A stretch of DNA of 64,000 nucleotides from Candidatus Yanofskybacteria bacterium (GTDB lineage Bacteria; Patescibacteriota; Minisyncoccia; 2-02-FULL-40-12; GWA2-44-9): assembly GCA_003514055.1 (NCBI GenBank), contig DOSG01000008.1:121229-185228 (forward strand), given 5' to 3'. Both the position numbers and the translations under genes were made by a program. Below the pieces are notes generated by a model. It did not search any database. It was not told the origin of the DNA and saw nothing but the letters and a program-made list of their open reading frames with translations. How positions within the stretch are numbered: position 1 is the first letter of the stretch; every line of letters begins with the position of its first letter. Below are positions 3,281 through 63,962 of this stretch, piece after piece.

Positions 3281-3895
3281 TTAAAAACCCTTTCTTTCTT
3301 TCTCAAAAAGAGAACTAGTATCTTCACTTTTCTCCGAAACATGTCTCCACCCCCTCTTGTGGTAATTTGTTATTTGTTTATCCATACCCCTAGTCATAAA
3401 ATCTTGTACATCAACCGGATTAATTAATTTTATAGAAGATGGTTTGTCTTTAAGAGTTCTTATATAGATGGCTCCTTCCTCTAAAATTTTATCTTTATGC
3501 TCCCCATTTTTTCGACAAATTATTGGATTTAAATAAAATTCTCTTATATCAAAGATTAGATACCGTTTTTTTCGATAGGTACCAATACCTATTTCGTAGT
3601 CAGCTTGAAAATTAGCAAACGATTCAACTTTTGCTTTAAGCTCTTCTATTTTTGTCACGAATTTGTTTAAGTGCTCCGCAGTAACGCCAACAAAATCAAA
3701 AGGTTTGTTATCTTTTATACCAACTATAACAAAACCTCCACTTTTTGTATTAGACATCGCTAAAATTGCCCGAATGAGTTTTTCTCTTGCCCAAACACTT
3801 TCTTCAAAATCAAAACTTTCCTTAAATTCTAGATTCAAGTTTTCAGTGTTTCCTTCTAAAATTTTCTCCATACTATCCTCGCTTATCTCCTTCAT
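3281..3895 (-). CDS. AlbA_2/Schlafen-like putative DNA-binding domain protein
   Basis: N-terminal stretch EGNTENLNLEFKESF...REKLIRAILAMSNTKSGGFVIVGIKDNKPFDFVGV matches the shape of the AlbA_2 (divergent RecG-like) domain. Confidence 0.45.
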   Translation of the reverse strand: MKEISEDSMEKILEGNTENLNLEFKESFDFEESVWAREKLIRAILAMSNTKSGGFVIVGIKDNKPFDFVGVTAEHLNKFVTKIEELKAKVESFANFQADYEIGIGTYRKKRYLIFDIREFYLNPIICRKNGEHKDKILEEGAIYIRTLKDKPSSIKLINPVDVQDFMTRGMDKQITNYHKRGWRHVSEKSEDTSSLFEKERKGF

Positions 3896-4422: not shown

Positions 4423-5505
4423 TTAACTAAATCCGAGGACGTCCATCACGGCCAATTCAAGAGATAGTGTCGGGATCGGAGACGTCTTCATCTCATTCCT
4501 GGCATTCGAGAAAGATGCGATCATCCTTACTACTAGCTTAGGGTCAATCTGATGAGTGAAATTAGCATCGCTCGAAATTTCTACATCGGAAAAATAGGCC
4601 GCCAAAGTCGCTGGACTAATTTTCGATATCAATACTTTGCGTAAATATTCTATTAATCCTTTCGAGAAGTTATCCAAATCAACTCCAGAACCATGGATAT
4701 CGCTTATAAATTCAATCGCCTTCTCTTTCTCGCTATTAAATATGAGAGACACGAACTTCGGGAAATAATCGGCGGGAATAAGACCCAAAGTTTCAATTAC
4801 GTCTTTAGCCGTGACTTCTTGGCCAAGAGGATATGCAGCCCTTATTTTAGATAAATAAACCTCGGCATCTCTTAGCGCACCATCAGCCGAGATAGCCATA
4901 GAGCGTAAGCTGTCATCTCCGATCTTTATCTTTTCTATGCGCGCGACATCTTTTATCTTATTAAAAATTTGATCGGTAGTAAGTCTCTTAAAATCAAATC
5001 TCTGAACGCGGGATAATACCGTTGGTAAGATCTTGTGCGATTCGGTGGTGGCTAGAATAAAGATTACGTGAGCCGGCGGCTCTTCTAAAATCTTAAGTAG
5101 TGCATTGAATGCGTCTTTGCTTAGCATATGAACTTCATCAATGATAAAAACCTTGTATTTACCGCTTGGAGCCGCGACTAGGGCCGATTCTTTAAGGTTG
5201 CGTATATCCTCGATGCCTCGATTTGAGGCGGCATCAATTTCAATTAAATCCATCGAACGGCCTTCATTCATTATCGAACAACTATCGCATTTATTGTCGG
5301 GATTTCCATCTTTGGATAGATTGTGGCAGTTCAAAGATTTAGCGAATACTCGCGCGACAGAGGTTTTACCGGTACCCCTGGGTCCGGTAAATAAATAAGC
5401 GTGGCCTATTCGGCCGCTTATTAATCCCCCGGTCAAAGTTTTTATTATATGATCCTGCCCCACAACTTCAGCAAACGTCTGGGGTCTATATTTTCTATAT
5501 AGCAT
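4423..5505 (-). CDS. dnaX: DNA polymerase III subunit gamma/tau
   Basis: MLYRKYRPQTFAEVVGQDHI...FTGPRGTGKTS Walker A and clamp-loader N-terminus. Confidence 0.85.
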   Translation of the reverse strand: MLYRKYRPQTFAEVVGQDHIIKTLTGGLISGRIGHAYLFTGPRGTGKTSVARVFAKSLNCHNLSKDGNPDNKCDSCSIMNEGRSMDLIEIDAASNRGIEDIRNLKESALVAAPSGKYKVFIIDEVHMLSKDAFNALLKILEEPPAHVIFILATTESHKILPTVLSRVQRFDFKRLTTDQIFNKIKDVARIEKIKIGDDSLRSMAISADGALRDAEVYLSKIRAAYPLGQEVTAKDVIETLGLIPADYFPKFVSLIFNSEKEKAIEFISDIHGSGVDLDNFSKGLIEYLRKVLISKISPATLAAYFSDVEISSDANFTHQIDPKLVVRMIASFSNARNEMKTSPIPTLSLELAVMDVLGFS

Positions 5506-5537
5506 AGTAGTACCCGAAAAAACTAAACTATCTTACA

Positions 5538-6158
5538 TTAACTTGTAGCACTTTTCTTAAAGACTGCCAACTTGTAACCTACAAAACTAAACACCAGCGA
5601 GACAGCTGATCCGACAATAGAAGCAATAGTTCCCCAAGCCTTAGCGTCAAGTCCGAATTGAGGACCTATGAATCTGGCCACAAATGAAGCTGTCGCCGTA
5701 TTCACGATTAGAGCCAATGCCGTAACGGCTATAAATTTAGCGAACTCCTTTCCACCTTCGCCGCTCTGCGAAGCATTAAAAGCCCAATACTTATTCCACA
5801 TATAGCTCGTCAAAAGAGCCACTATAACCGAGACCGTCTTGAAAGAGGTAAACCAATTGCCAGTAGAATGTCCGGATAATGCAAAAAGCAAGTTCAATAC
5901 TCCAATGTCTACGGCGAAATTGGTAAATCCGACCGCAACGTATTTGCCAAACTGATTGAAGAAAGCTACCCATCTTCCCAAGAAATATCCTAGATTAACC
6001 CCAAATATCCATAGAATCGGAATGATCAAGACTAGCCATGAGACATTCATTCCGAGGAATATTGGTGTGCCAAGAAACTCCAACACTCTCCAGCCAATAA
6101 AGCCGGCTATTAATCCGGTTATCACAGAGAAAACAAAATCTTTTTTTGTAAACTTCAT
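5538..6158 (-). CDS. GtrA-family polytopic membrane protein
   Basis: Four or more TM helices, C-terminal YKLAVFKK typical of the GtrA family. Confidence 0.45.
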   Translation of the reverse strand: MKFTKKDFVFSVITGLIAGFIGWRVLEFLGTPIFLGMNVSWLVLIIPILWIFGVNLGYFLGRWVAFFNQFGKYVAVGFTNFAVDIGVLNLLFALSGHSTGNWFTSFKTVSVIVALLTSYMWNKYWAFNASQSGEGGKEFAKFIAVTALALIVNTATASFVARFIGPQFGLDAKAWGTIASIVGSAVSLVFSFVGYKLAVFKKSATS

Positions 6159-6192: not shown

Positions 6193-8676
6193 TTACTTAA
6201 CCGGATCAAATTTAGCTTTAATCTCAGCCTCAACTTCATCTCTTGGTCGACCGTACTTTAGCTTGGACATATTATTGATCGCATCAAACATCTCCCTAGA
6301 ACCAGCACCGAAAACCTTCTCAGTCTCTAATCTGAGGCTAAATGGTTTCTCTACCTTATTATTTAATATCAGGCTAACATAGGCATTCAAGTTGGCTATA
6401 TTGGTCATATCCTGCGGAGTAAAGCTGGCTGCAAATTTATTTTTCATCGATGGATCCTCCGCGTCATCTGGACCAAGTCTTAGTGCAAAAATAGAGCCAA
6501 CATTACCGAATATTGCGTTTCTTATATTCTCTTTCAATTGCTTTACGAATTGGTGAGCGATAATCAGGCTGAGCCTATATTTTCTAGCCTCTGACAATAT
6601 CTTAGATATGCTGTCCGTAGAAAAATTCTGAAATTCGTCTATGTACAGGTAAAAATCTTTTCTTTGTTTCTCATCCACTATGTCCACTCTGGACAATGCG
6701 GCCATCAATAATTTACCTATTACGATCATGCCGAGAAGCGCAGCGTTAATTTCGCCAAGCTTACCCTGGGACAGATTAACAACCAAAATTTTGCCATTAT
6801 CCATAACCTCTCTGAAGTTGAAAGCGCTTTTCGGTTGATTAATGACTGGCCTAAGAAACTCATTGAATACAAAAGACGTGATCTTGGATGTTATATATGG
6901 GGCCATGTTGGCGAGACTCTGATCACCGCCGGCTTTCTCGGCCTCTAGCTTCCAAAATTGGCTCACCAGGGGGTTCATTTCCATGGTTAGTAGTTTAGCC
7001 CTATAAGCATCGTCGACTAGAACTCGGCTAACGTCAGCCAATACCGGAATATAGCTATCCTTATCTGGTAAGTTGCTTCTAAACGCATGTTCATAGGCGT
7101 CCATCAGTAATAAAGCCGAATTCTTAAAGTACTTTTCAAACATTGGTCCGCCGGTAGTTTTCAGATCGTATAACTTATCGAATATTCCGAACAATTCGTC
7201 TATAACCATAGATTTTTGTTCAGAATGATTTGGATCGAACTCCATCATGTTTAAGCCCATTGGCCTTGATATATCTCCAGGGTCAAAGTATATTACATCA
7301 TCAATCCTTTCTTTTGGAATAATGCCCAGGACAAACTCAGAGAATTCACCATGAGGATCAATTAGACATAATCCTTTTCCATTTTCGATATCCTGTCGTA
7401 AAAGCGATTTAAGAATAGTTGTTTTTCCAGTACCAGTTTGTCCGATCACGTACAAATGCCTTCTTCTGTCTTCGTCAGGCATATGCACAGGAGTCTCTTG
7501 CCCCCTATAAACATTAACTCCCAAGACAATCCCTTCTCTTGGTAGATCAGATGGTGGTTCAGATGGCTTGGCATTTAGATATTTGACCTTCGGCGCCGAA
7601 GTAGTCGCTAATGGGAAATGCATCAAACTCGCCAGCTCTTCACTAGAAAGTAAAATGGATTGCCTATTGTCGAATACCCTAAAGGCAAACTTGAAAAGAA
7701 GCTTATTTAGATAGCTCCCCTTAAGCTTATTCATCTTGACCGAATTGGCGTCTGAGCTAGACAACTGTACGAATGAATTGCTAATCTCGTTAAATATTTG
7801 CTCCGCTCGTGATTGATCCGTCGAAGAAACGATTACTCTAACATCTGTATCAAACAATGGCTTTGAAGCTTTGGTCTGGATACTTTTTATGACTTCCTGA
7901 TCAAATTGAGTTATCTGCTTAGGCCCTTCAGCTGGCTTATTTTCATCTTTCTTAGCCGGAAAGAATATATTAAAAATTGAGTTTGCTTTTTGAGCTTTTG
8001 AAAGTGCGCTCGAGAACTTAGCACCATTTTGCATATCACGAGCAACTTTCCCTGCGATTTTTCTGGCCGAGTCCTCGTGTGATGGTCTAATTAATATTTG
8101 CATGGAAGCACCCTCGCCTTGCCCGTCAAGTTTAGAAAATGCTGTCAGAATCAATCCCAAAGGATCAGACTCGAGACTTTGATAAGTCTTGAATGGTAAT
8201 ATAGCATCACCCTTTAGTGCCATGTATCCTCCAACATGAGCACCATTAGGATTAAAAATATTATAATCCTTAACTTTCGCCACTTCCGCCGTTGGGTAGA
8301 GCCCGTGGACCAGTTTCTCAAAGATATCTTCGAATGATCTTGGCACAGAAGCGTAGAAATGTATCTCTTCGCCAATATGATGCACGGCCATCTCAAAGGA
8401 TAGATATGGCTCACCATACTCAAATTTATTCCACCCTTTTGAATGAATATTGGTGAACGAAGAGTACAACTGCTCCATGACCATAATTAACTCTTTGTCT
8501 TGCTTCTGTGGGCCATTCGAAGATTGAGTTTCTCTAGGCAAGACTATGGAGAATAACGACATATTCAGAGCTCTCGCAATACTACCTTTGGTTCTGAAGG
8601 AATTAATTACAATAAGAGTAGCTATTAAAATCATAGCTGCGACGACTAGGTATATGGCTAGTAGTATTGGAGACAA
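6193..8676 (-). CDS. type IV secretion-like P-loop ATPase (VirB4/TraG-superfamily, AAA_10/DUF87-like), fused two-domain form
   Basis: 827 aa; N-terminal TM; Walker A GQTGTGKTT near residue 410; DPHGE; Walker B-like YLYIDEFQNF; ARKYRLSLIIAHQ. The N-terminal half is homologous to ORF 61992..63260 and the C-terminal half to ORF 60284..61990. Confidence 0.5.
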   Translation of the reverse strand: MSPILLAIYLVVAAMILIATLIVINSFRTKGSIARALNMSLFSIVLPRETQSSNGPQKQDKELIMVMEQLYSSFTNIHSKGWNKFEYGEPYLSFEMAVHHIGEEIHFYASVPRSFEDIFEKLVHGLYPTAEVAKVKDYNIFNPNGAHVGGYMALKGDAILPFKTYQSLESDPLGLILTAFSKLDGQGEGASMQILIRPSHEDSARKIAGKVARDMQNGAKFSSALSKAQKANSIFNIFFPAKKDENKPAEGPKQITQFDQEVIKSIQTKASKPLFDTDVRVIVSSTDQSRAEQIFNEISNSFVQLSSSDANSVKMNKLKGSYLNKLLFKFAFRVFDNRQSILLSSEELASLMHFPLATTSAPKVKYLNAKPSEPPSDLPREGIVLGVNVYRGQETPVHMPDEDRRRHLYVIGQTGTGKTTILKSLLRQDIENGKGLCLIDPHGEFSEFVLGIIPKERIDDVIYFDPGDISRPMGLNMMEFDPNHSEQKSMVIDELFGIFDKLYDLKTTGGPMFEKYFKNSALLLMDAYEHAFRSNLPDKDSYIPVLADVSRVLVDDAYRAKLLTMEMNPLVSQFWKLEAEKAGGDQSLANMAPYITSKITSFVFNEFLRPVINQPKSAFNFREVMDNGKILVVNLSQGKLGEINAALLGMIVIGKLLMAALSRVDIVDEKQRKDFYLYIDEFQNFSTDSISKILSEARKYRLSLIIAHQFVKQLKENIRNAIFGNVGSIFALRLGPDDAEDPSMKNKFAASFTPQDMTNIANLNAYVSLILNNKVEKPFSLRLETEKVFGAGSREMFDAINNMSKLKYGRPRDEVEAEIKAKFDPVK

Positions 8677-8686
8677 ACTTTAGGTA

Positions 8687-9118
8687 TTATTTAATCTTTT
8701 CTAACTTATTTCTCTCAATTAGAGTGTCGTATAACTGGTCAACTATGATGTCGTGAAAAGCGTCCATCAAGGCTGGGTTATTCTGGCCTTTAGCTGCTTT
8801 CACGGCATCTGCCAAGCTCTTACTAAAAACGATATTCACCAATGCCTGGACGGCGTCTTTAAGCTCGGGCAGTAGATAGGTTTGGTCATCATCCTTGGGC
8901 GTGGAATTAGCGCCCGAAGTAGCTGTTTGAGTATACGCCTTGGGCTGATACTCAGGAGCGTGCTCCTGTATTTTTTCTCCAACAGCTTCGTGAAGTATTT
9001 CTTTATCGGCTGCATTGTCTCCCTCAGACTGGCCCAAAGCCGCTCTCTTTTCTCGCAACCGCATCTCTAGATCAGCAATTTCTTGTTGTAGTGCCGGCGA
9101 AGTCTCTTGCATTTTCAT
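8687..9118 (-). CDS. hypothetical protein (predicted helical)
   Basis: 143-aa ORF between the ATPase and the small upstream ORF; no motif. Confidence 0.3.
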   Translation of the reverse strand: MKMQETSPALQQEIADLEMRLREKRAALGQSEGDNAADKEILHEAVGEKIQEHAPEYQPKAYTQTATSGANSTPKDDDQTYLLPELKDAVQALVNIVFSKSLADAVKAAKGQNNPALMDAFHDIIVDQLYDTLIERNKLEKIK

Positions 9119-58638: not shown

Positions 58639-59907
58639 CTAGCTAACCAACTCCTTAATCAAGCTATGTATCTGGTCAGATTTTCGATATACCAACTCTC
58701 GATCGCCGACTATGCATACGCGAACTGCGATGTAGTCGTCTAGCTCAAGTTTGAGAGTCTCAAAATATTCTTTATGAGTCTTCTTCAATGAGAACACTTC
58801 CCCGCCATCGTGATACAGTATGTCTTCGGGTGCAAAACGCCACGGACTCAATATGGGCACCACCACTACGCGCCGAGGATCAACTTTTAATGATTCCGCT
58901 ATTTTTGATTCGATAATCTCTAAGTCCTTAGGCTTTGAATAAGCCGCGAATTTCTCAAAGAATTTTCTGTCTTCACCAATAACTGTTATTTTCTTGCCGG
59001 CAATCCTTTCCTTAAATTTCATATTTCTCAGCCTTATCACCAAGCCAGACATTGGCAACTTGCGACCAATAAAAGATTGATACATGTCTCTGATCTTCTC
59101 ATTGCCGCTCAGATATAAGTGCGCCATAAGCTCGCCATCGTTCATCTTCCACAAATCATCTGGATCAATTTTTGAATCATTTAGCCAGTAGGCAATTATT
59201 TTTTGGAGGTATCTTTGGCTGATGAGTGAAGACTTGTGAAGGTATACCTGTTTAAACATGTAGGTATACAAACTCTGCACTTGTCGCGCCGCCTCTAGCG
59301 ATTTCTTGTCGATTACTAAATTGCCCTTTATAAAAGTTAGATAATTGAGCATAGTCTCGATATCTGGCTTCTGGCCAAATCCCGTGTGATAAATGTCGCG
59401 ATCGAGATAATCCAGCTTATCCATACCCATGTTTTTATCCATAACAATCTTATACAGAGGATTTTTCCTTTCAAAAAGACGCTTTACGTATTCATAATCA
59501 CCGCCGGCTTTTTCTATCTCGTCGCGGAGAAGCTTTATAACCTTGAGGCCAGTCTTGTCGTGATCAATGGTCGTAAGCTCTTCAATTAAATGTGAGAATG
59601 GTCCATGTCCAATATCATGAAGCAAACCGAACATGGCCACATTATATGCCTCATGCTGAGTTAGTACGCCATCATGCATCAATCTGTCGCACAACCTCTT
59701 GGTTTTATTATGGACGCCCATAACATGTTCAAAACGATTGTGCACTGCGCCAGGAAAAATCATTAGCGTCGTACCAAGCTGTGAGATATGCAAGAGCCGC
59801 TGAAATAGCGGATGGTTAACAAGAGAGATTATTCTTCTTACGTCTACGCTTTCGTTGGGAGGAATTCTAATATATTTTCTATAGTATTTATCTTGAGCTT
59901 TAGCCAT
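58639..59907 (-). CDS. HD-domain phosphohydrolase (dNTP triphosphohydrolase-like)
   Basis: FEHVMGVH ... LLHDIGHGPFSH HD motif pair; 422 aa. Confidence 0.65.
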   Translation of the reverse strand: MAKAQDKYYRKYIRIPPNESVDVRRIISLVNHPLFQRLLHISQLGTTLMIFPGAVHNRFEHVMGVHNKTKRLCDRLMHDGVLTQHEAYNVAMFGLLHDIGHGPFSHLIEELTTIDHDKTGLKVIKLLRDEIEKAGGDYEYVKRLFERKNPLYKIVMDKNMGMDKLDYLDRDIYHTGFGQKPDIETMLNYLTFIKGNLVIDKKSLEAARQVQSLYTYMFKQVYLHKSSLISQRYLQKIIAYWLNDSKIDPDDLWKMNDGELMAHLYLSGNEKIRDMYQSFIGRKLPMSGLVIRLRNMKFKERIAGKKITVIGEDRKFFEKFAAYSKPKDLEIIESKIAESLKVDPRRVVVVPILSPWRFAPEDILYHDGGEVFSLKKTHKEYFETLKLELDDYIAVRVCIVGDRELVYRKSDQIHSLIKELVS

Positions 59908-60283: not shown

Positions 60284-61990
60284 CTATTCTTTTTTACCTA
60301 GCCCCTTCAATAAATCTCTCAATTCTTCGACGTTAACTTCTTTCTTCTCTTGATTATGATCGCCTTTTCTAGGATCAATCTTTCTACCCTTAAAATCAAC
60401 GGGGCTAGATTGCAGAGCCGAAAGAGATGCTTCGGGTGGCCGACTAGACTGTTGGATGGGTGGTTGGCTACGATTAGGTTGATTAAGTTGACTCGACTGG
60501 ACGGACTGTTTAACTGGCTTTATCTGACTCGGAGAGCGGAAATCTCCACCTCTGCCCCCGCCGCCACGACTATCTCTTCGGTCATCTCGTTTATCATAAC
60601 CACCCGTTTGACCGCTATGTCCACGATCATCCCTCCTTGGCTCTTCTCTCTGAATCGATTGAGATTGCCGAACATCATCCTGACCTACTGGTTTACCACT
60701 TTCGGCAATCATCCATTCCGAGGTTTCTTTCTCGACTTGATCTCGTGGCCTCGTATAGACGCCTCTTGAAGCTTCTACGATCTCATTAACAAAAACTCTA
60801 TCGGGCTTTGAAAATGGTGGCAATGTAGCCGCTGAGAAAGCCTTAGAAGAGATGCCGTTGATCATTAATTTTATATAAACTGTATATTTAGCTAGATTGC
60901 CAATATCTATAGCCGTAAATTCAGGTTCAAACCATCTCTCCAAGAATTCTGCATCTTCGGCACCAACCCTAAAAGTAGCTATGGTACCAACGTTGCCGAA
61001 AACAGCATCTCTAACCGGTTCTTCCATCTGAGTTATATATTGATGGCCCATGATTAGACTTAAGTGATATTTCCTAGCCTCTGACAAAATATTAGCAAAT
61101 GATTCGGTAGCAAAGTGTTGGAATTCGTCTACGTATAGATAAAAATCTCTACGCTCACTCTCGGGTATATCAACGCGAGACATGGCCGCCAGCTGGATCT
61201 TGGTAATAAGCAGAGCACCCAAAAGTCTTGACGCGTCTTCTCCGATCTCACCCCTTGAAGCATTAACCAGCAATATCTTGCCTTCGTCCATTATCTTTCT
61301 GATGTCTAGCTTCGTTTTCGGTTGTCCGATAATGTTTCTGATTAAATTATTGGATGCAAATTGTCCAACTTTATTTTGAATAGCAGCCGTAGCTTCGGTG
61401 GCAAATTTATCAGCATACTTAGCGAATTCATCAGTCCAGAAAGATTTAACTATCGGATCTTTGATATTGGCCACAATCTCTTTACGATATTCTTTACTCG
61501 AGAGCATTCTATTGATGCCGAGCAGAGTCGAATCAGGGTATTCAAGCAATGCCAGAATAGTGTTATTTAAGATGTATTCCATTCTACCAGACCAAGCATC
61601 TACCCAAATCTTTTTAAATACACCGAGAAGACCACTAGCTATTTTGCCGCGATCATCGTAATTTACTTTCTCCATGACATTAAAAGAAATTGGATATTCT
61701 TTATCGCCAGGATTAAAAAATACTACATCTTTTATTCTCTCCTGCGGCACAAAATTCAATAGATCTAAAACTGCATCGCCGTGAGGATCAATATAGCAAA
61801 CACCGCGGCCAGCCTCTATGTCTTGGATACACATGTTCTTCATCATCTCGGACTTGCCCATACCGGTCGCTCCGATAACATACATATGCCTTCTTCTGTC
61901 GAGTGGCTTTATGCCAAATTTGACCTTCTCATTACGAAAGTTTGTTTCTCCTAGGAACACTAACTCTTTATCGTCAGAATGCTCTGCCAT
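60284..61990 (-). CDS. type IV secretion-like P-loop ATPase, ATPase half of a split gene, with low-complexity Arg/Gly/Gln-rich C-terminal tail
   Basis: Walker A GATGMGKSE, DPHGD, YLYVDEFQHF, ARKYHLSLIMGHQ. Homologous across the whole ATPase domain to residues about 400-827 of ORF 6193..8676. Confidence 0.5.
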   Translation of the reverse strand: MAEHSDDKELVFLGETNFRNEKVKFGIKPLDRRRHMYVIGATGMGKSEMMKNMCIQDIEAGRGVCYIDPHGDAVLDLLNFVPQERIKDVVFFNPGDKEYPISFNVMEKVNYDDRGKIASGLLGVFKKIWVDAWSGRMEYILNNTILALLEYPDSTLLGINRMLSSKEYRKEIVANIKDPIVKSFWTDEFAKYADKFATEATAAIQNKVGQFASNNLIRNIIGQPKTKLDIRKIMDEGKILLVNASRGEIGEDASRLLGALLITKIQLAAMSRVDIPESERRDFYLYVDEFQHFATESFANILSEARKYHLSLIMGHQYITQMEEPVRDAVFGNVGTIATFRVGAEDAEFLERWFEPEFTAIDIGNLAKYTVYIKLMINGISSKAFSAATLPPFSKPDRVFVNEIVEASRGVYTRPRDQVEKETSEWMIAESGKPVGQDDVRQSQSIQREEPRRDDRGHSGQTGGYDKRDDRRDSRGGGGRGGDFRSPSQIKPVKQSVQSSQLNQPNRSQPPIQQSSRPPEASLSALQSSPVDFKGRKIDPRKGDHNQEKKEVNVEELRDLLKGLGKKE

Positions 61991-61991
61991 T

Positions 61992-63260
61992 TTAAGCTAT
62001 TGGTAAGTTAATTGGTGGTTCGCCTTTTTTAGCCTCGATTCTCGGTAACGGAGACTCGACTCCTATGTCCGGGAAGTGATATATAGTTGCCAGCTCCTCT
62101 ACATTCAAAACGTAACTCTTGGCAGCGAACATTCTATTCTTAAACTTTTTGTAGAGCTTCACTTTCTTCTTATGTTCCATCATCGATTTAACGGGCCACT
62201 TGCCATCAGGCTTGGTATCGCCATCTATCTTGAATCCATTTAAATTTTGAGATGAGAATTGTTTGAAAGCGCCAGTTATACCAGCCGGCCTGCCCTTATT
62301 AAATTTGGGCCTTTCTGCAAAATATATAAATCTTATATTAGCAGAGAAGCCTATCTTAGCAGTGCTCTTGTCTATGGCTTTTATTTGTTCTTGTTTGCCA
62401 AACTGAAGCTGAGACATAGTCGTCTCTTTGTCATCTTTTTTCTCGGCAGGCGCACCACCAAATATGAGGCCGTCCAACCACCAAATAAATTTCGTGGACC
62501 AATGGCTATCCGCCTTTGGTTTTTTACCCATAAGCTTATCTACTTCTCCTTGGGCAGCCTTAGCCCACTTATCATCAGCAGATTTAATCAAAAGCTGAAT
62601 CGCCATGACCTCACCCGGTTGAATGATAGACAGAGATTGGGATAAAGACGAAAGAGGATCAATTCTCTTTAGATCGTCTTTGCCGGCATTATCTTCTTCA
62701 AACTCTGGATATGTCCTTATTGGGTAAGCATCTGGCTTGGTTAAGATTAACTCGCCAGCGGTTGAATCGAATTCGTCGTTAGGCATAGTGTCTGGATAAT
62801 CTGCCATATAATCAGGAACTTCGAATATTTCAGCATCTGGATATTGTGCATATATCTGAGACTCCAATAAATTACGATTCGCCTCAAGAGTTCTTATTAT
62901 AAAACGGATGTCCCCGCCAATACTCACAATCTCGAAAGAGAACCAATCGCCAACCTTCCCCTTCCAAAATCTATCTTTTGGCTTAACCGATGATCCAACC
63001 GTGTGTAGCGCCGAAAACATTTGTTCGGTAGCTTTGGGACTTTTTCTTGTCTCCTTGGGGACGCTCAATTGAAGAGTTACCCACTTCATCTTCGCAAGGA
63101 AGATCATACGATTATAGCTTTCAAATGAACCAAGAAGAATTGAGAATAAGACCACGGGCATGTATACCCACCAGAAAGAGATGAGGAAACCTAAAACGCC
63201 TATCAATAAACTAAGAATTTCTGAAGCTTGATCCATTAATTTCTCATAACTTAGGTACAC
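61992..63260 (-). CDS. N-terminal-domain half of the split T4SS-like ATPase (membrane-anchored)
   Basis: LSVPKETRKS...WFSFEIVSIGGDIRFII...YPDAEIFEV and C-terminal ...VEELATIYHFPD align with residues about 40-400 of ORF 6193..8676. Its stop abuts the start of ORF 60284..61990. Confidence 0.45.
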   Translation of the reverse strand: MYLSYEKLMDQASEILSLLIGVLGFLISFWWVYMPVVLFSILLGSFESYNRMIFLAKMKWVTLQLSVPKETRKSPKATEQMFSALHTVGSSVKPKDRFWKGKVGDWFSFEIVSIGGDIRFIIRTLEANRNLLESQIYAQYPDAEIFEVPDYMADYPDTMPNDEFDSTAGELILTKPDAYPIRTYPEFEEDNAGKDDLKRIDPLSSLSQSLSIIQPGEVMAIQLLIKSADDKWAKAAQGEVDKLMGKKPKADSHWSTKFIWWLDGLIFGGAPAEKKDDKETTMSQLQFGKQEQIKAIDKSTAKIGFSANIRFIYFAERPKFNKGRPAGITGAFKQFSSQNLNGFKIDGDTKPDGKWPVKSMMEHKKKVKLYKKFKNRMFAAKSYVLNVEELATIYHFPDIGVESPLPRIEAKKGEPPINLPIA

Positions 63261-63368: not shown

Positions 63369-63962
63369 TTAAGCCTCCTTAAGGACATAGTGTCCATCCT
63401 CATTTTTCTTGAAAATCTTGGAATCTTGGAGATTAAGTAAAATCGTATTCTCCTTGACCATTCTAGAATCCATCACTTTGGCTACTAGAGCGGCTTTAGG
63501 CATAGGCTTACCATGATCCTTTAGTATATCCATCAGAACATCCTTTACGGTACCTGGCTTGTATCCCCACTCATTTAAAGCATACATGCCGCGTCCAACC
63601 AAGACAAACCTATTATCTTTTATTAATTCGTTATGTACAGTCTGTACATTGGCCTTCTTGGAATCAAAGCCGTAGCTATTGATAAGTTTGGCAATATCAC
63701 CAAAATGTTTCGGTAAGCTCTCCTTCTTTAAGACTAAATAGGCTTTGTCGCGAACACCTTTTGGATTTATCTCAGACCAACTTGTCAATCCAACCTGATT
63801 AAAAATATTCTGGCTGATATCTTTGTTAACGGATAGAACCAACTCAATGTGTCTGTCGTCGAGTTGCCCCGATTCAAATGCAGTCACGCCGCTTTTCTTC
63901 GCTAACTGATAGAAATCATCTCTAGAAACAACCTTGCCTGCCTTTGACAGAGTAGCTATCAA
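63369..63962 (-). CDS. HARE-HTH domain protein
   Basis: DNRFVLVGRGMYALNEWGYKPGTVKD matches the HARE-HTH signature (RF..vGRG.Y.L.EWG) seen in RNAP delta subunit N-domains and R-M associated proteins. Confidence 0.4.
   Translation of the reverse strand: MIATLSKAGKVVSRDDFYQLAKKSGVTAFESGQLDDRHIELVLSVNKDISQNIFNQVGLTSWSEINPKGVRDKAYLVLKKESLPKHFGDIAKLINSYGFDSKKANVQTVHNELIKDNRFVLVGRGMYALNEWGYKPGTVKDVLMDILKDHGKPMPKAALVAKVMDSRMVKENTILLNLQDSKIFKKNEDGHYVLKEA

What the first reader, a model, noticed from the sequence alone, without database searches (positions are those of the whole stretch)
6193..8676. Fused versus split paralogs of a type-IV-secretion-like ATPase (827-aa single gene here; 422-aa plus 568-aa adjacent genes at 60284-63260)
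Residues about 40-400 of the 827-aa protein align with ORF 61992-63260, including the LPRET/VPKETR and YLSFEMAV.../WFSFEIVS... stretches. Residues about 400-827 align with ORF 60284-61990, sharing HxYVIGxTGxGK Walker A, DPHGE/D, YLY(I/V)DEFQ(N/H)F and ARKY(R/H)LSLI..HQ. The split pair is exactly contiguous: the stop of one ORF abuts the start of the other. This is a clean fission/fusion pair within one genome. The Walker A position near the middle of about 800 residues resembles VirB4/TrbE-type ATPases, while the C-terminal motif region resembles TraG/VirD4 (TraG-D_C). Both loci keep the N-terminal TM anchor. The second copy adds an Arg/Gly/Gln-rich disordered tail.
Basis: partly seen in the sequence, partly recalled or inferred. 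Interest (0 to 1): 0.55.

Follow-up and report, generated by a model that had tools for sequence, protein, structure and literature searches.

The report
Fused and split coupling-ATPase paralogs
This Candidatus Yanofskybacteria (CPR/Patescibacteria) genome carries two old copies of a membrane-anchored, conjugation-type "coupling" ATPase, one as a single gene and one as two adjacent genes, and the uncharacterised front half (Pfam DUF8128) has the fold of the VirB4 secretion-ATPase N-terminal domain.

Summary
ORF 6193-8676(-), 827 aa, aligns over residues 5-379 with ORF 61992-63260(-) (25% identity, E 5e-19). Residues 380-818 align with ORF 60284-61990(-) (39% identity, E 2e-99).

The split is not a sequencing error. 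The junction reads GCT TAA a ATG, with a TAG three codons upstream in the downstream frame. Orthologous pairs in other Yanofskybacteria keep two genes separated by 16-126 nt in the same synteny.

The two loci belong to two old Patescibacteria clades. Clade A is fused and highly conserved; it was fused in all 80 genomes sampled. Clade B is almost always split, has at least 644 clusters at 50% identity, and has one fused member at its base.

The motor half matches T4SS coupling-protein models (TrwB_AAD_bind, TraG-D_C, T4SS-DNA_transf). Full-length homologs on Bacillus and Actinobacteria plasmids sit in the coupling-protein position, next to a relaxase-like gene and apart from a separate VirB4.

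Neither locus has T4SS genes nearby, so the substrate and cellular role remain inferred. This is a new variant of a known kind, of moderate interest.

The parts
6193..8676 (-). Clade A gene: single-chain DUF8128 + coupling-protein-like ATPase (827 aa from the TTG start; the deposited form is 813 aa)
   Evidence: ORF. It is 100% identical to P0001 and 60-71% identical to about 120 listed Patescibacteria orthologs carrying PF26449+PF10412+PF01935. AF2 full-length model has pLDDT 77.7.
8590..8676 (-). N-terminal transmembrane helix of the fused protein (residues 1-29), followed by basic residues, suggesting an N-out/C-in topology
   Evidence: Kyte-Doolittle maximum 3.02. AF2 helix spans residues 3-37.
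7534..8565 (-). DUF8128 domain of the fused protein (residues ~38-381). It ends with EELASLMHFP (7612-7641) and the EPPSDLP linker motif (7540-7560).
   Evidence: Aligns with the 422-aa ORF. Precomputed PF26449 is assigned to identical and orthologous proteins.
6196..7533 (-). RecA-like motor with a helical insertion (residues 382-827). Walker A is at 7420-7443, Walker B at 6628-6651, and ARKYRLSLIIAHQ at 6550-6588.
61992..63260 (-). Clade B gene 1: stand-alone DUF8128 protein (422 aa from GTG; more likely 414 aa from the ATG at 63236). It has a TM hairpin at residues 11-46 and ends with EELATIYHFP (62070-62099) and EPPINLP (62001-62021).
61988..61994 (-). Gene junction TAA-a-ATG (stop 61992-61994, one spacer base, ATG 61988-61990), an arrangement typical of translational coupling
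   Evidence: Sequence. Orthologous junctions have 16-nt and 126-nt spacers.
60284..61990 (-). Clade B gene 2: stand-alone motor ATPase (568 aa, no TM segment). Walker A is at 61850-61873 and Walker B at 61118-61141.
   Evidence: It is 100% identical to P0399 of Ca. Yanofskybacteria GW2011_GWF1_44.
60287..60703 (-). Low-complexity S/G/R/Q-rich C-terminal tail (residues ~430-568). It ends in motifs conserved among orthologs: SLSAL..PVDFKGRKI and EV(N/D)xxEL(R/K)xLL.
   Evidence: Composition and comparison with the L001 and L003 orthologs.
8687..9118 (-). Conserved 143-aa protein with no family match, 10 nt upstream of the fused gene; a candidate partner or adaptor
   Evidence: tblastn finds it directly upstream of the fused gene in 27 of 86 loci. 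It has no Pfam, NCBIfam or PADLOC match.

Best explanation
The window holds two ancient paralogs of a Patescibacteria-wide membrane ATPase family. The family derives from the coupling proteins (T4CP; VirD4/TrwB superfamily) of monoderm conjugation systems.

Each functional unit has two modules. The first is a TM-anchored cytoplasmic DUF8128 domain with the fold of the VirB4 N-terminal domain. By analogy with VirB4, I infer that it tethers the motor to the membrane and to partner membrane proteins, and helps it oligomerise. The second is a RecA-like motor with a helical insertion and intact Walker A/B and sensor motifs. I infer that it forms a ring and uses ATP to feed a substrate, either DNA or an unfolded protein, toward a membrane channel. 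The most likely channel is the chromosomal Patescibacteria T4SS encoded elsewhere in the genome.

At locus 1 (clade A) the two modules form one chain. At locus 2 (clade B) a fission at the flexible linker just after the invariant EPPxxLP motif produced two genes with an arrangement typical of translational coupling. The soluble motor must then dock non-covalently on its DUF8128 partner to reach the membrane. The motor has also gained a disordered basic tail ending in a conserved peptide motif, which I infer is a recruitment site like the C-terminal tails of other T4CPs.

Shown here: the paralogy, the reality and age of the split, the domain identities, and the plasmid homologs in the T4CP position. 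Inferred: hexamer formation, docking through EPPxxLP, the substrate, and cooperation with the T4SS.
For: - **Paralogy:** E 5e-19 and 2e-99.
- **The split is conserved and syntenic:** SecD-SecF-sigma/HARE-HTH-DUF8128-ATPase-HD-Ddl in L001-L004, with 16-126 nt spacers. The top 120 hits of each half are all stand-alone proteins. There are 644 cluster representatives at E<=1e-30, nearly all 400-600 aa.
- **Clade A is fused throughout:** all 80 GTDB-species loci sampled across Paceibacteria-type, ABY1-type and Microgenomatia-type CPR are fused. Mean column identity is 69%.
- **Fission happened early in clade B:** the fused clade-B protein P0340 has a motor 56% identical to the 568-aa protein, against 38.6% to the fused paralog. 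It branches at the base of clade B in an NJ tree.
- **Plasmid homologs sit in the T4CP position:** full-length homologs with the same architecture (hhalign Prob 98.7% and 96.2% for the N domain) lie next to a replication-relaxation gene and apart from a bona fide VirB4 (AAA_10, 280 bits) in Bacillus and Embleya plasmid T4SS operons.
- **Literature:** 5,713 VirD4-type T4CP homologs occur in 2,918 of 3,035 Patescibacteria genomes, about two per genome, and only 148 lie near virB4 (PMC12102498).
Against: - No T4SS, relaxase or pilin gene lies within the 64-kb window. Both loci sit among housekeeping genes.
- According to PMC12102498, T4CP homologs are found in more Patescibacteria genomes (96%) than VirB4 (80%). 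The homolog in Ca. Southlakia epibionticum is not essential, although the T4SS is. This fits a T4SS-independent role at least as well.
- All NCBIfam T4CP models score far below their cut-offs, for example 46 bits against 366.
- Structure comparison cannot separate VirB4-CTD from T4CP.
- The DUF8128-VirB4 link has no sequence support: hhalign Prob <1% against the N-terminal halves of plasmid VirB4 proteins.
- Oligomeric state, docking and substrate were not tested.
Confidence: 0.6

Rival explanations
1. The proteins are T4SS-independent housekeeping DNA translocases. They would act on their own at the membrane, for example in chromosome segregation or dimer resolution like FtsK/SftA, or in import of foreign DNA, having been exapted from a conjugative T4CP.
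For: Both loci lie in conserved housekeeping synteny. The fused gene forms a tight co-directional cluster with GtrA and DnaX (gaps of 34 and 32 nt), and DnaX lies downstream in 17 loci, including distant CPR lineages. Clade A is very strongly conserved. T4CP homologs are more prevalent than VirB4, rarely lie near it, and exaptation is 'not ruled out' (PMC12102498). The Southlakia T4SS cluster lacks a recognisable coupling protein (PMC10633639).
Confidence: 0.25
2. The proteins are VirB4-type assembly ATPases of a second, unrecognised T4SS-like or pilus machine, rather than substrate-coupling proteins.
Against: VirB4 sequence models fail: CagE_TrbE_VirB hits 0 of 57, TIGR00929 scores 14.7 bits against 643, and AAA_10 is weak. 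On plasmids the homolog co-exists with a genuine VirB4 and sits beside the relaxase-like gene. No VirB3, VirB6, VirB8 or pilin genes flank either locus.
Confidence: 0.1
3. The split is an artefact, either a sequencing frameshift or a pseudogene, and the real gene is a single ORF.
For: The two ORFs are separated by only one base, next to an AAAA run.
Against: Stops in both frames bracket the junction. Orthologs have 16-126-nt spacers. Hundreds of independent assemblies encode stand-alone halves. Both halves are under clear conservation, 46-78% and 56-91% identity.
Confidence: 0.01
4. The proteins are anti-phage defence ATPases of the HerA, DndH/DptH or MADS type.
Against: No other defence-system genes are adjacent. 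The family is near-universal with fixed synteny across a whole phylum, unlike defence islands. DUF8128 has no PADLOC hit.
Confidence: 0.03

Closest known systems
Type IV coupling proteins (VirD4/TrwB/TraG/TraD), especially the long ~810-910-aa 'DUF87' or 'T4SS conjugative DNA transfer' proteins of Bacillus and Actinobacteria conjugative plasmids
   Same: They share the motor domain with Walker A/B, the HQ sensor and the TraG-D_C region. Pfam TrwB_AAD_bind and TraG-D_C score above threshold. The plasmid proteins share the whole architecture, including a DUF8128-like N domain (tblastn 24% identity over 84-91% of the query; hhalign Prob 96-99%).
   Different: The window genes are chromosomal, have no relaxase or T4SS neighbours, and are present as two paralogs, one of them split into two genes. 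Canonical VirD4/TrwB has only a two-TM N-terminus and no ~350-aa N-terminal domain. All curated NCBIfam T4CP models score below cut-off.
VirB4 (R388 TrwK; T. pseudethanolicus VirB4)
   Different: There is no sequence-level match to VirB4 N-terminal models. The motor scores higher on T4CP HMMs. These proteins have their own TM anchor rather than a VirB3 partner, and no VirB3/6/8 genes lie nearby.
TrsD + TrsE of pGO1-type and Patescibacteria T4SSs (a stand-alone VirB4-N-terminal-like protein next to VirB4)
   Same: Both have an N-terminal-domain-like module encoded as a separate gene next to its ATPase, as in the 422-aa + 568-aa pair (concept from PMC12102498).
   Different: TrsD accompanies a complete VirB4 and lies in the T4SS cluster. 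Here the ATPase partner is a T4CP-like motor with no N domain of its own. A direct comparison with TrsD was not possible with the tools available.
EccE-EccC of type VII secretion
   Different: The structural similarity is much weaker, there is no sequence relationship, and the machinery is different.

Membership tests
Pfam DUF8128 (PF26449) | Match to the family HMM | tested here: met
   Precomputed PF26449 is assigned to P0001 and P0121, which are 100% identical to the window proteins, and to all listed homologs. It is named DUF8128. The model is absent from the local Pfam copy, so I did not re-score it myself.
Type IV coupling protein (VirD4/TrwB/TraG) | Nucleotide-binding domain recognised by T4CP HMMs, with intact Walker A/B | tested here: met
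   TrwB_AAD_bind scores 38.8 and 43.9 bits (cut-off 20.5); TraG-D_C scores 24.8 and 22.1 (cut-off 22). Over 57 orthologs the counts are 57/57, 56/57, and 38/57 for T4SS-DNA_transf.
Type IV coupling protein (VirD4/TrwB/TraG) | Membership of a curated T4CP equivalog or subfamily (NCBIfam TraD, VirD4-like CD1115, and others) | tested here: not met
   Best scores are 46.2 bits against a cut-off of 366 (SXT_TraD) and 45.4 against 250 (CD1115).
Type IV coupling protein (VirD4/TrwB/TraG) | Genetic linkage to a relaxase and/or a T4SS mating-pair-formation cluster | tested here: not met
   There are no such genes in the 64-kb window. Homologs on Bacillus and Embleya plasmids do show this linkage. The rest of the genome could not be examined.
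Type IV coupling protein (VirD4/TrwB/TraG) | Short N-terminal transmembrane anchor directly followed by the NBD | tested here: not met
   A TM anchor is present, but a ~350-aa DUF8128 domain lies between it and the NBD in the fused form. In the split form the NBD protein has no TM segment at all.
Type IV coupling protein (VirD4/TrwB/TraG) | Hexameric ring, and substrate (DNA or relaxase) binding | not testable with these tools
   This needs biochemistry or multimer modelling.
VirB4 | N-terminal domain of the VirB4 type | tested here: inconclusive
   [not shown]
VirB4 | C-terminal ATPase recognised by VirB4 models (AAA_10, TIGR00929) | tested here: not met
   [not shown]
VirB4 | Neighbouring VirB3/VirB6/VirB8-type genes | tested here: not met
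   There are none in the window.
FtsK/SpoIIIE | FtsK_SpoIIIE motor HMM above threshold | tested here: not met
   [not shown]
HerA | HerA motor together with its N-terminal HAS-barrel, and HerA equivalog models | tested here: not met
   [not shown]

The most novel reading that the evidence does not exclude
The DUF8128-motor proteins may preserve the ancestral two-domain architecture from which both VirB4 and the shorter VirD4-type coupling proteins descend. In Patescibacteria the two paralogs may have become core, T4SS-independent translocases, for example co-expressed with dnaX for chromosome handling or for uptake of host DNA. The split clade would then be a natural dissection of the membrane adaptor from the motor.
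Probability: 0.2. Interest if true: 0.7.

Novelty: new variant of a known kind. Interest (0 to 1): 0.42.

Why it matters
Patescibacteria are obligate epibionts with tiny genomes, yet nearly all of them keep about two coupling-protein-like ATPases away from their essential T4SS. Nobody knows what these proteins do (PMC12102498).

This analysis gives them an anatomy. Each has a VirB4-N-terminal-domain-like membrane module (DUF8128) and a T4CP-type motor. They fall into two ancient clades, one of which is naturally split at the linker.

That supplies concrete handles for experiments:
- separate knockouts of the adaptor and the motor;
- testing the EPPxxLP docking motif;
- testing the conserved C-terminal tail motif.

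The Bacillus and actinomycete plasmid homologs offer a tractable system for the same architecture.

The result also bears on how VirB4 and VirD4 diverged. It shows that the database labels ("DUF87", "hypothetical protein", "FtsK-like") hide a single coherent family.

Tried and rejected
- **Frameshift artefact:** rejected on the junction sequence and the conserved two-gene orthologs.
- **Local Pfam and NCBIfam scans of the 422-aa protein:** no hit. DUF8128 is newer than the local Pfam copy.
- **Profile search of the PDB sequences with A1:** only the ATPase part hit (TrwB, E 9e-5). There was no sequence link from DUF8128 to TrwK.
- **hhalign of the DUF8128 profile against the N-terminal halves of plasmid VirB4-like proteins:** Prob <1%. 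The VirB4 link therefore rests on predicted structure only.
- **The listing of cluster members for the taxonomy of distant clade-B representatives:** almost no names returned.
- **Literature searches for DUF8128 and for Patescibacteria+DUF87:** nothing found. A CPR+FtsK search led only to unrelated papers.
- **The MADS preprint:** it did not describe the domain content of mad8.
- **Integrated conjugative element remnant:** considered and rejected. There is no relaxase or integrase, and the synteny with housekeeping genes is fixed across CPR lineages.
- **Whether this genome lacks FtsK or carries a T4SS cluster:** could not be tested, because only the 64-kb window is available.
Full report
**1. 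Observation**

- The 827-aa product of 6193-8676(-) aligns over residues 5-379 with the 422-aa product of 61992-63260(-), at 25% identity and E 5e-19.
- Residues 380-818 align with residues 8-422 of the 568-aa product of 60284-61990(-), at 39% identity and E 2e-99.
- The breakpoint is exact. The 422-aa protein ends ...EPPINLPIA. The fused protein reads ...EPPSDLP-RE-GIVLG. The 568-aa protein starts MAEHSDDKELVFLG.

The junction is GCT TAA a ATG.
- One base separates the stop from the start.
- The downstream frame has a TAG three codons before its ATG.
- A length error in the AAAA run therefore cannot fuse the genes.

Hydropathy and the AF2 models give the following topology.
- The fused protein has one N-terminal TM helix.
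- The 422-aa protein has a hydrophobic helical hairpin.
- The 568-aa protein has no TM segment.

The S/G/R/Q-rich tail of the 568-aa protein is real. Although it is low-complexity and variable, it ends in motifs shared with orthologs: SLSAL..PVDFKGRKI and EVxxxELxxLL.

**2. The split is ancient and conserved**

The 422-aa protein has more than 2,000 database relatives. The best 120 are all stand-alone ~415-aa DUF8128 proteins at 46-100% identity. The best 120 relatives of the 568-aa protein are all stand-alone 400-640-aa ATPases.

In other Yanofskybacteria the pair sits in the same neighbourhood, SecD-SecF-sigma/HARE-HTH-DUF8128-ATPase-HD-Ddl-AsxRS. The intergenic spacers there are 16 and 126 nt.

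An exhaustive HMMER search of 50%-identity cluster representatives found 2,033 relatives of the 422-aa protein, 644 of them at E<=1e-30. The top 150 are 34-47% identical and, with one exception, stand-alone.

The exception is P0340 (956 aa), seen in three independent sources.
- It is a fused protein of the split-type clade. Its motor is 56% identical to the 568-aa protein but only 38.6% to the fused paralog.
- In an NJ tree rooted on the fused clade it is sister to all the other clade-B proteins.

The fused gene is 60-71% identical to its best 120 relatives, with a mean column identity of 69%. A scan of one genome per GTDB species confirmed 541 loci. The best 80 come from Yanofsky-, Portnoy-, Specht-, Moran-, Nealson-, Staskawicz-, Magasanik-, Falkow- and Woesebacteria among others, and all 80 have both halves contiguous in one frame.

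The window therefore holds one member of each of two old paralogous clades.
- Clade A is fused and slow-evolving.
- Clade B split early in its history.
- The same MAGs carry both clades, for example COV30_02490 and COV30_01510.

The window itself comes from Ca. Yanofskybacteria bacterium GW2011_GWF1_44.

**3. What the halves are**

*Motor.* Pfam TrwB_AAD_bind, DUF87 and TraG-D_C all pass their gathering thresholds.

| Pfam model | Orthologs hit, of 57 |
|---|---|
| TrwB_AAD_bind | 57 |
| TraG-D_C | 56 |
| T4SS-DNA_transf | 38 (best E 4.5e-10) |
| AAA_10 | 41 (weak) |
| CagE_TrbE_VirB | 0 |

- The best match among solved-structure sequences is TrwB.
- All curated NCBIfam T4CP, VirB4, HerA and Ced models score far below their cut-offs.
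- The fold therefore places the motor in the VirB4/VirD4/HerA group. Only the sequence models tilt it toward T4CP.

*N-terminal half.* This is Pfam DUF8128 (PF26449), known from precomputed hits and named. The model is not in the local Pfam copy.
- The AF2 model of the 422-aa protein is confident, with pLDDT 86 and pTM 0.80.
- No P-loop protein appears in that list. The VirB4 CTD-only chain 4ag5 is in the library but absent from the list. The match must therefore be to TrwK's N-terminal domain.
- Foldseek independently ranks 13 TrwK chains first, with probability >=0.99.
- There is no sequence-level support for this link.

**4. Relatives outside Patescibacteria**

tblastn against plasmids found 327 records. 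In 36 of them the match covers at least 80% of the query, including the N domain.

*Bacillus plasmids.* The ~910-aa homolog is annotated "DUF87 domain-containing protein".
- It opens a conjugation operon.
- It is followed immediately by a "replication-relaxation family" gene.
- Then come TcpE-family and other transfer proteins, a genuine VirB4 (AAA_10, 280 bits) and a CwlT-like hydrolase.

*Embleya linear plasmid.* The order is PrgI, then a VirB4-like protein, then the 812-aa homolog (T4SS-DNA_transf + TrwB_AAD_bind + TraG-D_C), then replication-relaxation.

The DUF8128 profile matches the N-terminal regions of these proteins at Prob 98.7% (E 2.9e-16) and 96.2% (E 2.2e-9).

The architecture is therefore that of a monoderm-plasmid coupling protein. 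This agrees with the published conclusion that the Patescibacteria T4SS derives from monoderm conjugation machinery (PMC12102498).

**5. Context and literature**

Every neighbour I scanned in the window is either a housekeeping gene or has no family match. They include DnaX, GtrA, PMT glycosyltransferases, aminoacyl-tRNA synthetases, Lon, MreBC, PBP2, MurG, MraY, FtsW, RuvA and UvrB. There is no T4SS, relaxase or pilin gene.

The fused gene sits in a tight cluster: the 143-aa protein, then the fused gene, then GtrA, then DnaX.
- The 143-aa gene is detectable directly upstream in 27 loci.
- DnaX lies downstream in 17 loci, including distant lineages.

Quinonero-Coronel et al. 2025 counted 5,713 VirD4-type T4CP homologs in 2,918 of 3,035 Patescibacteria genomes, only 148 of them near virB4. 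They noted that the Southlakia homolog is non-essential and that exaptation cannot be ruled out. That is about two per genome, which matches the two clades; linking their counts to clades A and B is my inference.

I found no paper that mentions DUF8128, the VirB4-like N domain or the split.

**6. Mechanism**

*Shown:*
- two modules;
- intact catalytic motifs in both paralogs;
- a fission exactly at a low-confidence linker, after an invariant EELAxxxHFP...EPPxxLP segment;
- longer stand-alone DUF8128 proteins that repeat the (E)PPxxLP peptide in Pro-rich tails.

*Inferred:*
- DUF8128 tethers and organises a ring-shaped motor at the cytoplasmic face of the membrane, as the VirB4 N-terminal domain does.
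- In clade B the motor docks non-covalently on its DUF8128 partner.
- The basic tail with its conserved terminal motif recruits a partner or substrate.
- ATP hydrolysis drives DNA or protein toward a channel, most likely the chromosomal T4SS.

The main rival is a T4SS-independent DNA translocase, at about 0.25. It is favoured by the housekeeping synteny and by the prevalence figures.

The other rivals rank lower.
- A second VirB4-type assembly ATPase: about 0.1.
- A defence ATPase (PADLOC mad8, 69.7 bits): about 0.03.
- A sequencing artefact: about 0.01.

**7. Verdict**

The thing itself is a widespread family that is already catalogued but undescribed.

What appears to be new:
- the structural identification of DUF8128 as a VirB4-N-terminal-like module attached to a T4CP-type motor;
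- the recognition of two ancient clades, one of them split;
- the link to long T4CPs of Bacillus and actinomycete plasmids.

I rate it a new variant of a known kind, with interest 0.42.

Noticed in passing
window 8687-9118 (-): A 143-aa protein with no Pfam, NCBIfam or PADLOC match lies 10 nt upstream of the fused ATPase gene. tblastn finds it directly upstream of the fused gene in 27 of 86 loci, so it may be a dedicated partner or adaptor.
   Followed up: partly
window 4423-6158 (-): GtrA-like (5538-6158) and DnaX (4423-5505) follow the fused gene with gaps of 34 and 32 nt. DnaX lies downstream of the fused gene in 17 loci, including Magasanik- and Falkowbacteria, which suggests an old operon-like link to the clamp loader.
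   Followed up: partly
window 9230-11649 (-): A 99-aa coiled-coil protein and a 700-aa coiled-coil/Pro-rich protein (no family match; the region aligned to relatives is hydrophobic and C-terminal) are inserted between the 143-aa gene and the divergent PMT glycosyltransferase pair, relative to L005 and L006. Only weak relatives were found, in L008 and L033.
   Followed up: no
window 3281-3895 (-): A Schlafen/AlbA_2-domain protein matches the PADLOC candidate defence family PDC-S50 (31 bits).
   Followed up: no
window 58639-59907 (-) and 63369-63962 (-): An HD + HD_assoc_2 protein (weakly dGTPase-like) and a HARE-HTH protein flank the split pair, and both are conserved in L001-L004. The L001 ortholog of the HARE-HTH protein is 356 aa with a Sigma70_r4 domain, so the window ORF is probably cut short by the window end or by the ORF caller.
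   Followed up: partly
window 8635-8676 and 63237-63260: Start sites look wrong in opposite directions. The deposited 813-aa protein starts at an internal ATG that truncates the TM helix, whereas the TTG at 8676 fits the orthologs. The 422-aa GTG ORF is probably over-extended by 8 codons; orthologs start at the ATG at 63236.
   Followed up: partly
[not shown]
   Followed up: no
L089 12058-14460 (Clostridium sporogenes plasmid NZ_CP022406.1): An 800-aa 'ATP-binding protein' immediately after a TrbC/VirB2 pilin gene aligns to residues 43-710 of the fused protein (E ~1e-18 to 2e-20 across C. sporogenes/C. botulinum plasmids). It has no Pfam hit at E<=1e-3, and its match to the DUF8128 profile is only weak (Prob 47.5%).
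   Followed up: partly
L087 8862-10202; L088 3091-3978; L090 12008-13003: On Bacillus and Embleya plasmids the DUF8128-type coupling protein is always followed by a 'replication-relaxation family' gene, a recurrent pair that may define a conjugation module. The L087 copy had no hit in the local Pfam or NCBIfam libraries.
   Followed up: no
L007, L024, L030, L054, L078 and others: Several TPA or binned MAGs labelled Planctomycetales, Micavibrio, Bdellovibrionales, Gammaproteobacteria, Pacearchaeota or 'uncultured Saccharibacteria' carry typical clade-A genes that are 31-57% identical in the N-terminal domain to the Yanofskybacteria one. Those taxonomic labels look doubtful.
   Followed up: no
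window 6196-7533 (-) and 60287-61990 (-): Both motors match the PADLOC model mad8 of the MADS defence system across its whole length (69.7 and 56 bits), which is higher than any Pfam T4CP score. The domain content of mad8 could not be established from the preprint that was read.
   Followed up: partly
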